From Escherichia coli (GTDB lineage Bacteria > Pseudomonadota > Gammaproteobacteria > Enterobacterales > Enterobacteriaceae), in assembly GCF_030013205.1 (NCBI RefSeq), contig NZ_CP122648.1: 64,000 nt of DNA; one strand, written 5' to 3'. Positions within the stretch are counted from its first letter, which is position 1. Each line of letters opens with the position of its first letter. Shown here piece by piece: positions 51,401 through 54,400 of this stretch. The position numbers were made by a program.

Positions 51401-54400
51401 TGACAAGATGGATACTCTGGCGGGTATCTTCGGTATCGGCCAGCATCCGAAAGGCGACAAAGACCCGTTTGCGCTGCGTCGTGCCGCACTTGGCGTGCTG
51501 CGTATTATCGTTGAGAAGAACCTCAATCTTGACCTGCAAACCCTGACCGAAGAAGCGGTGCGTTTGTATGGCGATAAGCTGACAAATGCCAACGTGGTTG
51601 ATGATGTTATCGACTTTATGCTCGGTCGCTTCCGCGCCTGGTATCAGGACGAAGGTTACACCGTTGACACCATCCAGGCGGTACTGGCACGTCGTCCGAC
51701 GCGTCCGGCTGATTTCGATGCCCGAATGAAAGCGGTATCGCACTTCCGTACCCTGGATGCAGCTGCAGCACTGGCGGCGGCGAACAAGCGTGTATCTAAC
51801 ATTCTGGCGAAATCTGACGAAGTGCTGAGCGACCGCGTGAATGCCTCTACTCTGAAAGAGCCGGAAGAAATTAAACTGGCGATGCAGGTTGTGGTGCTAC
51901 GTGACAAGCTAGAGCCGTACTTTGCTGAAGGTCGTTACCAGGATGCGCTGGTCGAACTGGCTGAATTGCGTGAACCGGTTGATGCCTTCTTCGATAAAGT
52001 GATGGTCATGGTTGATGACAAAGAATTGCGAATCAACCGTCTTACCATGCTGGAGAAACTGCGCGAATTATTCCTGCGCGTTGCGGATATTTCGCTGTTA
52101 CAGTAATAACGCCGTTATTAAAAAGCCTGCCATCTGGCAGGCTTTTTTATCGCTAAATAATACAGCAACCTTTAATAATCTTCTGATGAATAAAGATTAT
52201 CTCATATATTAATTTTATGAGATTTTTTTAGGATTATATCAAGGAGAAGAAACGAACTTATTAAGCTAGAATAGCCACGGGTGCTTGAGACTGTTTGTCT
52301 CAGGTATTCACCGAAAGGCAGACAGAGAAAAGCCCCACCTAACTATAAATCAAAGTGAGGCTACCCTATGCCTGAACACCATAAGGTTAGCCTCTTACTC
52401 GTTGGAAATCAACACAGGAGGCTGGGAATGCCGCAGAAATATAGATTACTTTCTTTAATAGTGATTTGTTGCACGCTTTTATTTTTCACCTGGATGATAA
52501 GAGATTCACTGTGTGAATTGCATATTAAACAGGGGAGTTATGAGCTGGCGGCATTTTTAGCCTGCAATTTGAAAGAGTAAGAGTCTTCGGCGGGAAGTTA
52601 TTCCCGCCTTTCTTACGGCGTTGCGCATTCTCATTGCACCCAAATTTATTTTTCACAAAAATAATAATAGATTTTATTACGCGATCGATTATTTATTTCC
52701 TGAAAAACAAATAAAAAAATCCCCGCCAAATGGCAGGGATCTTAGATTCTGTGCTTTTAAGCAGAGATTACAGGCTGGTTACGTTACCAGCTGCCGGGCC
52801 TTTAGCGCCGCTTTCGATGGTGAAGGACACTTTCTGACCTTCGTCCAGAGATTTGTAACCATCGTTCTGGATAGCAGAGAAGTGTACGAACACGTCTTTA
52901 GAGCCATCGTCAGGAGTGATGAAGCCGAAGCCTTTGTCAGCGTTGAACCATTTTACGATACCAGTCATTTTACCGGACATAGTGTATTACCTTTAATAAT
53001 TAAGTGTGCCTTTCGGCGATATGGCGTGCTTTACAGATTTTGAAGCGTTAAAGGAATGTGCACTACGAGGGGTATCAACGATAACTCTTGAAGGGACTTG
53101 CCTTACTACACTGCTTTAATGGTCTGTACGTCAAACCGTTGACGTGCATTAAGCCACGCATTGGCGGGTGATGCAACAATTATTTTTCATATTTATGATT
53201 AATCGGTTGGAAAACGGTCCTGTCATCAGGACCGTAAACAGCAATAAAGTGGATAAAAGTCTATTCCATCAACTGCTTACTTAATGCCGGGTTGGCTTGA
53301 ATCAAACGCATCAATTTTAGTTCGGCACTTGAAGGCTTCACGCGTCTGGATTCCCATTCCTTTACCATGGCGACTGATACGCCCAAAACCCGGGCGAAAT
53401 CATCGATTTTTAATCCTGTCCCTTTTCGTAACTGCTCAATTTCGGTACAGGATGTTGTTCTGTGCGTCAGGGTAATTTTCTGCGTTTCATCTTTAAAAAC
53501 AATCTGTTCCAGGCTGCTCAACAGCTCATGCATTGGATCTTTATATTCCATTGAAAACTCCTCAAATCACACTGCGGGATCGTGAATTGCATCGAAGCTC
53601 ATTAAGAATAGTCGGGAAAAACAGACACAGCGGGGTGTAGTCAGGGCATGCTCTGGCTATGATTCGATTCAGCCAGTCATTTAGCGTGACTTATAGCCAC
53701 CTAACGATCTGATAAATGCCGATATATCTCTTACCACTCCCGGTTTGTAAAGATTTCGAAAATCTAACGTTCTGAGAAGGCGTAAATCTCTGGCAACAAA
53801 AAAAGCAACGGCACTATCATTTTTTAACAATGAAACAACAAATTAACCTTGTTTCATTTTCTCCATGATTTTACCAGGAAGATTACGTAGAAAGGGTATC
53901 CTGCAAGCCTGTCCTGGACTATCCTTGTCACGTCAGACACGCGTGTGTCGTTGTGCGCTTTTTTTGGGTGAAAGGAGTAAGAAAATGGCGACAGGAAAGT
54001 CCTGCTCTCGCTGGTTTGCGCCTCTTGCGGCGTTATTAATGGTAGTTAGCCTGAGTGGGTGTTTTGATAAAGAAGGCGATCAGCGTAAAGCGTTTATCGA
54101 CTTCCTGCAGAATACAGTGATGCGTAGCGGTGAACGTCTACCAACCCTGACTGCCGATCAGAAAAAACAGTTTGGTCCTTTTGTCTCTGATTACGCGATT
54201 CTGTATGGTTATTCTCAGCAGGTGAATCAGGCGATGGATTCCGGTCTGCGCCCGGTCGTAGACAGCGTTAACGCAATTCGCGTACCGCAGGATTACGTTA
54301 CGCAAAGCGGCCCACTGCGTGAAATGAACGGTTCTCTGGGCGTACTGGCGCAACAGCTGCAAAATGCGAAGTTGCAGGCCGATGCTGCGCACTCTGCGCT

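What the first reader, a model, noticed from the sequence alone, without database searches (positions are those of the whole stretch)
52151..52767. Uninterrupted hokA type I toxin locus between glyS and cspA
A 50-aa Hok-family toxin ORF with a good Shine-Dalgarno sequence lies in the glyS-cspA interval, and no IS is present there. In K-12 this locus is associated with an IS150 copy and is considered inactive, so this strain may retain a functional chromosomal hok/sok system. The in-frame upstream extension may be mok; the antisense Sok RNA and fold-back elements cannot be delimited by eye.
Basis: partly seen in the sequence, partly recalled or inferred. Interest (0 to 1): 0.5.

Follow-up and report, generated by a model that had tools for sequence, protein, structure and literature searches.

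The report
Intact hokA/sokA toxin-antitoxin locus, already known
The stretch between glyS and cspA holds a complete copy of the well-known E. coli hokA/mokA/sokA small-toxin/antisense-RNA module without the IS150 insertion seen in K-12, which is the commonest state of this locus in E. coli and was characterised in 1999, so it is ordinary.

Summary
A 50-codon hokA ORF (52428-52580, +) lies in the 661-bp glyS-cspA spacer and no IS is present. [quoted passage not shown] Predicted folds show the expected switch. The full-length RNA pairs 5' end with 3' end and buries the mok SD; the 3'-trimmed RNA pairs tac with ucb. In 30 HokA-like loci from more than ten genera these helices are kept, several through compensatory changes.

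It is not unusual. 2830 of 5425 complete E. coli genomes have the uninterrupted spacer. The exact protein is a named RefSeq HokA seen on at least 1000 contigs. The module differs at only 7 of 431 aligned positions from that of E. coli C, whose IS-free hokA/sokA was studied by Pedersen and Gerdes (1999). As summarised in a 2026 preprint, that allele did not mediate post-segregational killing and was not activated by rifampicin.

Verdict: already known, low interest. The one side point is recurrent IS150 insertion at one site in the hokA leader.

The parts
52120..52148 (+). glyS terminator hairpin (GCCTGCC-ATCT-GGCAGGC), flanked by an A-run and a T-run. It is not part of the hok module.
   Evidence: Sequence; fold at -20.6 kcal/mol; only weak sub-threshold Rfam terminator-like hits
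52267..52272 (+). hokA promoter -10 hexamer TAGAAT. The -35 is poor (GAGAAG at 52244-52249). The inferred +1 is G52279.
   Evidence: Aligns with the -10 region upstream of the R1-type hok mRNA start. TAGAAT-like hexamer kept at the same distance from GGGTGC in 30 loci. Not found by the consensus scan, so this is inferred.
52279..52641 (+). Full-length hokA mRNA (about 363 nt), from tac to fbi
   Evidence: Rfam RF01794 begins at 52279. MFE -137.3 kcal/mol, z = -8.05 against shuffles, with the 5' end paired to the 3' end. Ends are inferred, not mapped.
52279..52290 (+). tac (translational activator element), GGGUGCUUGAGA
   Evidence: Pairs with fbi in the full-length fold, with ucb in the 3'-trimmed fold, and with 52297-52309 in the nascent 32-nt RNA as a metastable hairpin
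52331..52338 (+). ucb (upstream complementary box / anti-SD), AGCCCCAC
   Evidence: Pairs with the mok SD in the full-length fold and with tac in the trimmed fold. ucb/SD pair 77:107 is C-G in 18 loci and U-A in 11.
52355..52362 (+). mok Shine-Dalgarno region, GUGAGGCU
   Evidence: GAGG lies 7 nt before ATG 52368. Conserved against the R1-type locus. In the RNAalifold consensus it pairs with GCCUC 52390-52394 (dcb), with a compensatory change at 107:144.
52368..52580 (+). mokA ORF, 70 codons, in frame with hokA (20 extra N-terminal residues, then HokA)
   Evidence: ORF list. The same 70-codon in-frame ORF is kept in 8 of 9 loci of the hokA group (window; L013-L024, E. coli to Citrobacter sedlakii). 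K-12 annotates mokA as a pseudogene sharing the hokA stop.
52322..52378 (-). sokA antisense RNA (about 57 nt). It has a 5' single-stranded part over the mok start and a terminator hairpin AGCCUCAC...GUGGGGCU followed by UUUUCU.
   Evidence: The 3' 35 nt equal the annotated K-12 sokA remnant with 1 mismatch. Hairpin fold. The 5' end is inferred from the -10 position. Transcript not observed here.
52384..52412 (-). sokA promoter: -35 TTGATT (52412-52407), 17-nt spacer, -10 TAACCT (52389-52384)
   Evidence: Homologous to TTGCGC-17-TATCCT of the R1-type locus. TTGnnT and TAnnnT positions are invariant in 30 loci (invariant columns A106, T110, A111, A129, C132, A133, A134). Below the threshold of the generic scan.
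52416..52421 (+). hokA Shine-Dalgarno AGGAGG
   Evidence: Sequence. E. coli C and most other alleles have AGGGGG here.
52428..52580 (+). hokA toxin ORF, 50 codons plus stop, with Cys29 and Cys46 present
   Evidence: NCBIfam HokA equivalog at 126.5 bits. Exact sequence is a named RefSeq HokA on at least 1000 contigs. The two cysteines are discussed.
52589..52608 (+). G+C-rich 3' stem-loop GGCGGGAA-GUUA-UUCCCGCC. It corresponds to the hairpin that ends the processed (truncated) hok mRNA.
   Evidence: Terminator-like hit. Aligns with GGCGGGCGCAGGCCCGCC of the R1-type locus. Conserved in 30 loci.
52629..52641 (+). fbi (fold-back inhibition element), UCUCAUUGCACCC
   Evidence: Pairs with tac in the MFE. 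Helices 1-6/410-415 and 8-12/391-395 are 98% paired in 30 loci, with 4 of 5 pairs of the second helix changed on both sides.
52557..52628 (-). ysaE-like 23-codon ORF antisense to the hokA 3' end. It is a neighbour and not needed for the hok/sok reading.
   Evidence: Annotated as ysaE in K-12 and as a hypothetical protein in the identical strain
52713..52767 (-). cspA 3' UTR and terminator.
   Evidence: Rfam RF01766 cspA covers 52713-53140 at 501 bits; terminator hairpin 52743-52716

Best explanation
This is the intact chromosomal hokA/mokA/sokA type I toxin-antitoxin module of Escherichia coli in its uninterrupted state. A weak promoter makes a hokA mRNA of about 363 nt. Its 5' end (tac) pairs with its 3' end (fbi), and its ucb box covers the mok Shine-Dalgarno sequence, so the full-length RNA is translationally inert. 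Slow 3' trimming back to the G+C-rich stem-loop removes fbi. tac then pairs with ucb, which exposes the mok ribosome-binding site and the Sok target. The short, unstable SokA RNA, made from a stronger promoter on the opposite strand, pairs with that region and blocks mok translation. Because mokA is an in-frame extension of hokA, this also blocks synthesis of the 50-residue membrane toxin. Shown here: the ORF, all sequence elements, the predicted alternative folds, and their conservation and covariation in homologues. Inferred from the R1 hok/sok paradigm: transcription, 3' processing, RNase III decay and killing. The cellular role of the chromosomal copy is not known.
For: - Toxin: HokA equivalog at 126.5 bits against a cut-off of 89. 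The exact protein is a named RefSeq HokA on at least 1000 contigs.
- Leader: Rfam RF01794 at 119.8 bits against 59.
- Full-length fold: z = -8.05, with tac-fbi and ucb/mok-SD pairing.
- Trimmed fold: removing as little as 3-6 nt from the 3' end flips tac to ucb.
- Nascent RNA: the first 32 nt form a tac-sequestering hairpin.
- Conservation in 30 HokA-like loci: tac-fbi helices are 98% paired, with 4 of 5 pairs compensatory in the inner helix. ucb/SD is 80% paired, with 4 of 7 pairs compensatory. 0 of 500 shuffles reach the observed covariation, and slid controls are 31-47% paired. tac/ucb is 98.6% paired.
- RNAalifold independently predicts tac-fbi, the metastable hairpin and the SD/dcb Sok-target hairpin, with 19 pairs changed on both sides.
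- sok promoter key positions are invariant in 30 loci.
- The in-frame 70-codon mok is kept in 8 of 9 loci of the hokA group.
- hokA lies directly downstream of glyS in several genera.
- 424 of 431 positions are identical to the E. coli C allele. Promoters, tac, ucb, mok SD and start, the Sok 5' region and fbi are identical. hokA/sokA of E. coli C is described as a regulated hok homologue in PMC3562002.
- The HokA coding sequence is toxic on overexpression (bioRxiv 10.1101/2025.08.07.668861).
Against: - No transcript, processing or toxicity data exist for this strain.
- The generic promoter scan finds neither promoter. The -10 of sokA is only TAACCT and the hok -35 is poor.
- The same MFE approach did not reproduce tac/ucb pairing for the R1-type control at the truncation point I chose. 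The fold switch is therefore supportive rather than proof.
- According to the preprint's summary of Pedersen and Gerdes 1999, the near-identical E. coli C locus did not stabilise plasmids by post-segregational killing and was not activated by rifampicin. An intact sequence does not guarantee a killing phenotype.
- tac itself is nearly invariant, so tac/ucb has no double changes.
Confidence: 0.88

Rival explanations
1. The locus is intact in sequence and makes its RNAs, but it is phenotypically silent. Repression by SokA and the mRNA folds is so tight, or hok translation so weak, that the module never kills. It persists as a tolerated relic or serves a non-killing role.
For: [quoted passage not shown] The window differs from that allele at only 7 of 431 positions. 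The hok promoter has a poor -35.
Against: Regulatory helices and promoter positions are kept across genera with compensatory changes, which argues for selection on regulated expression. About 47% of E. coli genomes carry IS150 in the leader, and IS150 repeatedly hits hok/sok leaders in evolution experiments (PMC5419217). This is easier to explain if the intact system has a cost, although IS150 site preference would explain it too. The window has a stronger hok SD (AGGAGG) than E. coli C (AGGGGG).
Confidence: 0.4
2. The locus is a decaying pseudogene remnant under no selection that merely happens not to have been hit by an IS in this strain.
For: Many strains carry inactivated versions: two IS150 classes, an IS150-end scar that removes the mok SD, and outright loss. 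Some orthologues in other species have premature stops or a lost start (L016, L022, L025).
Against: The ORF is intact and scores as an equivalog. All elements are present and identical to a characterised allele. The position downstream of glyS, the 70-codon mok frame and the alternative helices are conserved across genera with compensatory substitutions.
Confidence: 0.05
3. The interval's main product is something other than hok/sok, for example the small antisense ORF ysaE or regulatory 3' UTR elements of glyS and cspA.
For: A 23-codon ORF antisense to the hokA 3' end is annotated as ysaE in K-12.
Against: These features occupy the edges. 52279-52641 is fully accounted for by the hok mRNA model and its homologues. 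The ysaE reading frame was not examined for conservation here.
Confidence: 0.03

Closest known systems
hokA/mokA/sokA of Escherichia coli C (IS-free allele studied by Pedersen and Gerdes 1999)
   Same: Same chromosomal site (glyS-hokA-cspA, 661-bp spacer). 424 of 431 aligned positions are identical. The hok promoter -10, tac, ucb, mok SD and ATG, sok promoter, Sok 5' region, 3' stem-loop and fbi are all identical.
   Different: Seven positions differ. They are: A versus G at 52341 in the Sok terminator hairpin and leader; hok SD AGGAGG versus AGGGGG (52419); codon 15 Cys versus Phe (52471); a synonymous change in codon 48; a substitution plus a 1-nt indel at 52624-52625 in the 3' UTR; and one base downstream of fbi.
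hokA remnant of E. coli K-12 MG1655 (b4455, with mokA b4647 and sokA b4614 pseudogenes and IS150)
   Same: Same site and same genes. HokA differs at 3 of 50 residues (F15C, E36G, K47N). The sokA 3' remnant matches window 52356-52322 with one mismatch.
   Different: K-12 has a 1443-bp IS150 in the leader and lacks window 52357-52395. That stretch holds the mok SD, the mok ATG, and the Sok 5' part and -10. The hok promoter, tac and ucb are thereby separated from the ORF, and the sok -35 from the rest. The window has none of this.
hok/mok/sok of plasmid R1 (parB), the paradigm type I toxin-antitoxin system
   Same: Same order of elements and the same alternative pairings: tac-fbi, ucb/mok-SD, tac/ucb and the metastable 5' hairpin. 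The Sok promoter overlaps the mok coding start and a G+C-rich 3' hairpin precedes fbi (mechanism as summarised in PMC9841398). Helices are kept by compensatory changes, for example UGAGGC/GCCUCA versus UGAGAC/GUCUCA.
   Different: The window's locus is chromosomal and syntenic across genera, not plasmid-borne. mok is in frame with hok here but in another frame in R1-type and Rahnella-type loci. Column identity to the R1-type locus is only about 70%. Plasmid stabilisation has not been shown for hokA.

Membership tests
hok/sok (Hok/Gef) type I toxin-antitoxin family | Hok/Gef-family toxin of about 50 residues, with an N-terminal transmembrane helix and conserved cysteines | tested here: met
   NF007290 HokA equivalog at 126.5 bits (cut-off 89). 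NF007279 Hok family matches at E = 2.2e-14 (53 bits, below its 73-bit cut-off). Cys29 and Cys46 are present.
hok/sok (Hok/Gef) type I toxin-antitoxin family | Conserved hok mRNA 5' leader / Sok region (Rfam RF01794) | tested here: met
   119.8 bits against a gathering score of 59, full model 1-157, at 52279-52430
hok/sok (Hok/Gef) type I toxin-antitoxin family | Long-range tac-fbi pairing of the mRNA 5' and 3' ends | tested here: met
   Present in the MFE, z = -8.05, and in the RNAalifold consensus. 98% of cells are paired in 30 loci, and 4 of 5 pairs of the inner helix are changed on both sides.
hok/sok (Hok/Gef) type I toxin-antitoxin family | ucb pairs with the mok SD in the full-length RNA and with tac in the 3'-processed RNA | tested here: met
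   Predicted switch. ucb/SD is 80% paired with 4 compensatory pairs. tac/ucb is 98.6% paired. Prediction and comparison only; no structure probing.
hok/sok (Hok/Gef) type I toxin-antitoxin family | mok reading frame with its own SD that starts upstream of hok and overlaps it | tested here: met
   GAGG then ATG 52368; the 70-codon ORF runs through hokA. It is conserved in 8 of 9 loci of the hokA group.
hok/sok (Hok/Gef) type I toxin-antitoxin family | cis-encoded antisense Sok RNA with its own promoter and terminator, complementary to the mok translation start | tested here: met
   TTGATT-17-TAACCT on the minus strand, with key positions invariant in 30 loci. Terminator hairpin. The 3' part equals the annotated K-12 sokA remnant. 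This covers sequence features only.
hok/sok (Hok/Gef) type I toxin-antitoxin family | Expression of unstable Sok and stable, 3'-processed hok mRNA; killing when Sok decays | not testable with these tools
   No RNA or phenotype data for this strain. The literature on the near-identical E. coli C allele reports no post-segregational killing and no rifampicin activation. The HokA coding sequence is toxic when overexpressed.
hokA orthologue group (chromosomal locus downstream of glyS) | Position between glyS and cspA, and HokA-type sequence with hard-coded Cys46 | tested here: met
   Synteny in the window, in E. coli C, in K-12, and downstream of glyS in Pseudocitrobacter, Kluyvera, Citrobacter sedlakii and Phytobacter. 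Cys46 is present in this group, against Tyr46 in the non-syntenic Enterobacter and Rahnella groups.

The most novel reading that the evidence does not exclude
The hokA leader is a natural hot-spot where IS150 has inserted at least twice. The two insertions lie within 1-2 nt of each other inside the mok Shine-Dalgarno sequence, in opposite orientations, and together account for about 47% of complete E. coli genomes. A third lineage carries an IS150-end scar at the same spot. If this reflects selection rather than IS150 target preference, the intact allele in this window is an active, costly killer module that E. coli lineages repeatedly disarm. The window's allele also has a stronger hok SD (AGGAGG) than the E. 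coli C allele that tested negative. In that case the 1999 conclusion that chromosomal hok loci are inert would not hold for alleles like this one.
Probability: 0.12. Interest if true: 0.4.

Novelty: already known. Interest (0 to 1): 0.1.

Why it matters
It matters little. The locus, its IS-free form, its regulatory elements and its distribution are already described, and RefSeq annotates the gene by name. The work here gives a base-level map of the elements in this window. It shows that the allele is essentially the one already tested in E. coli C. It also gives numbers for how often the locus is intact (52%) or IS150-disrupted (30% and 17%) in complete E. coli genomes. The open biological question, what chromosomal hok/sok loci are for and whether intact ones can kill, is not made more tractable by this window than by any of thousands of other strains.

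Tried and rejected
- The generic sigma-70 scan found neither the hok nor the sok promoter. Both were placed by homology to the R1-type locus and by conservation instead.
- Pedersen and Gerdes 1999 and the 2008 MMBR review could not be read, and the supplement of PMC3562002 is not held. What that study found is therefore cited second-hand.
- My own recollection that the E. coli C hokA locus stabilised plasmids was contradicted and dropped.
- The R1-type control did not show tac/ucb pairing in the MFE at my chosen truncation point. The fold switch is therefore treated as supportive only.
- Covariation within E. coli is uninformative because tac, ucb and fbi are invariant there. A cross-genus set was fetched instead.
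- Two guesses at the E. coli C coordinates missed before the locus was found.
- A possible TadA-editing reading of the Cys/Tyr polymorphism at codon 15 was considered and dropped. The sequence there is UACA, not the UACG motif (motif from my own knowledge).
- The AT-rich hairpin plus T7 upstream of the hok promoter was checked as a conserved insulator terminator. The structure is not conserved in other genera.
- Hits for 'hokA IS150' in PMC10355175 were spurious, arising from an author name.
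Full report
**1. What is in the sequence**

- glyS ends at 52106. The cspA coding sequence is 52768-52980 on the minus strand. Rfam places the whole cspA mRNA at 52713-53140 (501 bits).
- In the 661-bp spacer, a 50-codon ORF at 52428-52580 encodes MPQKYRLLSLIVICCTLLFFTWMIRDSLCELHIKQGSYELAAFLACNLKE. AGGAGG lies 6 nt upstream.
- The ORF matches the NCBIfam HokA equivalog at 126.5 bits against a cut-off of 89.
- The exact sequence is a RefSeq protein named HokA, seen on at least 1000 contigs.
- Rfam RF01794 matches 52279-52430 on the plus strand, over its full length, at 119.8 bits against a gathering score of 59. This model is named 'sok' but is built on the sense strand of the hok leader.
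- The spacer is 100% identical to that of E. coli K_EC180, where no IS is annotated.

**2. Anatomy**

I aligned the region to an R1-type hok/sok locus from an IncFII plasmid and to 29 HokA-like loci from other species. This places every element of the hok paradigm, whose mechanism is summarised in PMC9841398.

| Element | Window position | Sequence / note |
|---|---|---|
| hok promoter -10 | 52267-52272 | TAGAAT; the -35 is poor |
| Inferred +1 | 52279 | G |
| tac | 52279-52290 | GGGUGCUUGAGA |
| ucb | 52331-52338 | AGCCCCAC |
| mok SD | 52355-52362 | GUGAGGCU |
| mok ORF | 52368-52580 | ATG at 52368 opens a 70-codon ORF in frame with hokA |
| sok promoter (minus strand) | 52412-52384 | TTGATT, 17 nt, TAACCT |
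| Sok terminator hairpin | 3' end near 52322 | followed by UUUUCU |
| 3' stem-loop | 52589-52608 | G+C-rich |
| fbi | 52629-52641 | UCUCAUUGCACCC |

The Sok 3' part equals the sokA remnant annotated in K-12, with one mismatch. The generic promoter scan finds neither promoter. However, the TTGnnT and TAnnnT positions of the sok promoter are invariant in all 30 loci.

**3. Predicted behaviour**

- The 367-nt RNA from 52279 folds at -137.3 kcal/mol, z = -8.05 against shuffles. tac is paired to fbi and ucb is paired to the mok SD.
- Removing 3-6 nt or more from the 3' end moves tac onto ucb and frees the SD region, which then forms the Sok-target hairpin.
- The first 32 nt alone form a hairpin that sequesters tac.
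- An R1-type control shows tac-fbi pairing in the full-length fold. It did not show tac/ucb at my truncation point, so single-sequence folds are supportive only.

**4. Comparative test**

A scan of one genome per species found 38 HokA-like loci.

- hokA lies directly downstream of glyS in E. coli, another Escherichia species, Pseudocitrobacter, Kluyvera, Citrobacter sedlakii, Phytobacter and an unnamed enterobacterium. cspA is also downstream in several of these.
- RNAalifold on 30 full-length mRNA regions independently predicts tac-fbi, the metastable hairpin and the SD/dcb Sok-target hairpin. 19 pairs are changed on both sides.
- Counting the pairs I named gave the following. tac-fbi helices are 98% paired, with 4 of 5 pairs compensatory in the inner helix. 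ucb/SD is 80% paired, with 4 of 7 compensatory. No shuffle in 500 reaches the observed covariation, and slid controls are 31-47% paired.
- tac/ucb is 98.6% paired but has only one-sided changes, because tac is nearly invariant.
- One column illustrates the double constraint. ucb column 77 is C in 18 loci and U in 11. The U pairs with an A in the SD and still forms G-U with tac.
- The 70-codon in-frame mok is kept in 8 of 9 loci of the hokA group. Rahnella-type loci have mok in another frame, as in R1, and Enterobacter-type loci lack the ATG.

**5. How common it is, and what K-12 has**

- Of 5425 complete E. coli genomes with a match, 2830 carry the spacer uninterrupted.
- K-12 MG1655 has IS150 at 3720633-3722075, with mokA and sokA annotated as pseudogenes.
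- In this class IS150 is antiparallel to hokA and window 52357-52395 is missing. That stretch holds the mok SD and ATG and the Sok 5' part and -10. The K-12-type junction occurs in 1644 genomes.
- A second class, in 904 genomes, has IS150 parallel to hokA. It is flanked by a duplication of AAGTG (52353-52357) inside the mok SD.
- The uninterrupted form is thus the majority state and is not a peculiarity of this strain.

**6. Relation to the characterised allele**

- I located hokA in the E. coli C genome and aligned it. 424 of 431 positions are identical. All promoters, tac, ucb, the mok SD and ATG, the Sok 5' region, the 3' hairpin and fbi are identical.
- The differences are: one base in the Sok terminator hairpin; the hok SD (AGGAGG here, AGGGGG in E. 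coli C); codon 15 (Cys versus Phe); a synonymous change; two positions in the 3' UTR; and one base past fbi.
- hokA/sokA of E. coli C is cited as a characterised hok homologue with a 52-nt Sok target (PMC3562002).
- bioRxiv 10.1101/2025.08.07.668861 summarises Pedersen and Gerdes 1999 as finding that hokA of E. coli C could not mediate post-segregational killing and was not activated by rifampicin. It also reports that the HokA coding sequence is toxic when overexpressed, and that HokA already encodes both cysteines needed for the disulfide.
- I could not read the 1999 paper itself.

**7. Explanation and rivals**

The best reading is an intact, canonically organised hokA/mokA/sokA module regulated as in R1. 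Identity and architecture are shown. Transcription, processing and killing are inferred.

- The main rival is that the module is intact but phenotypically silent, as reported for E. coli C. This is compatible with the architecture and cannot be excluded here.
- A neutral-relic reading is unlikely, given cross-genus synteny and compensatory changes.
- The small antisense ORF ysaE and the cspA 3' UTR are neighbours, not alternatives.

**8. Novelty**

This is already known. The only mildly interesting by-product is the pattern of IS150 insertions at one spot of the leader. It echoes repeated IS150 insertions next to hokC, hokE and mokB in evolution experiments (PMC5419217). An O145:H28 allele also carries the first 8 nt of IS150 in place of the mok SD.

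Noticed in passing
window 52353-52396; L002:2056-3501; L003:2059-3501: IS150 occupies the hokA leader in two distinct ways in complete E. coli genomes. The K-12 type (1644 genomes) is antiparallel to hokA, with 52357-52395 missing. A second type (904 genomes) is parallel to hokA, with a 5-bp duplication AAGTG inside the mok SD. Their left junctions lie within 1-2 nt of each other. IS150 insertions next to other hok loci recur in evolution experiments (PMC5419217).
   Followed up: partly
L011:350-362 (E. coli O145:H28), equivalent to window 52355-52362: An 'uninterrupted' allele reads AAAGTG-TGTACTGC-CCCTC. TGTACTGC is the first 8 nt of the IS150 left end and replaces the mok SD, so it looks like a scar of an imprecisely deleted IS150. 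At most 65 genomes carry it, all listed ones O145.
   Followed up: partly
window 52359-52376: There are two haplotypes of the mok start / Sok target region among E. coli strains. GAGGCTACCCTATGCCTGAAC is found in the window, E. coli C and E110019. GAGGCCCCTCTATGCATAGAC is found in strains 138, SCU-176 and Q65. The clustered differences lie exactly where Sok first meets its target and could change Sok specificity. Not tested.
   Followed up: no
window 52419 and 52470-52472: The hok SD is AGGAGG in the window and K-12 but AGGGGG in E. coli C and most sampled strains. HokA codon 15 is TGC (Cys) here, TAC (Tyr) in E110019 and TTC (Phe) elsewhere.
   Followed up: partly
window 52557-52628 (-): A 23-codon ORF antisense to the hokA 3' end and 3' stem-loop. 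It is annotated ysaE in K-12 and 'hypothetical protein' in other RefSeq records. Its start and length differ between strains (72 nt or 60 nt).
   Followed up: no
L006:931-1302 (E. coli NRZ88308): Some strains carry an extra insert of about 390 bp between hokA and cspA, with a 372-nt ORF that PGAP names YidD (membrane protein insertion efficiency factor). Another strain (L007) has a truncated IS150 plus IS1 and no hokA at all.
   Followed up: no
L018:1180-1260 (Pseudocitrobacter faecalis): Immediately upstream of the hokA promoter there is a second hok 3' end (stop codon, G+C hairpin, fbi-like ...CAATGCACCC). This indicates tandem hokA copies downstream of glyS in this species.
   Followed up: no
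L026-L050 (Enterobacter, Lelliottia, Rahnella and other loci): Non-syntenic HokA-like toxins have Tyr at position 46, where the glyS-linked HokA group has Cys. This fits the report that some hok mRNAs need A-to-I editing of a Tyr codon to Cys whereas HokA is hard-coded.
   Followed up: no
window 52199-52227 (+): An AT-rich hairpin (TCTCATA...TATGAGA) followed by T7 lies between the glyS terminator and the hokA promoter. The hairpin is not conserved in other genera, but a TTTTAGGAAT motif about 50 nt before the hok +1 is. Its function is unknown.
   Followed up: partly
window 33487-33529 (+): Rfam ES036 (CssrF) sRNA match just above threshold, 38.9 bits against 37.6.
   Followed up: no
window 52768-52980 (-): The protein WP_000014594.1 encoded here is CspA by position and by the Rfam cspA mRNA match. 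Most RefSeq/PGAP records nevertheless label the gene cspE.
   Followed up: no
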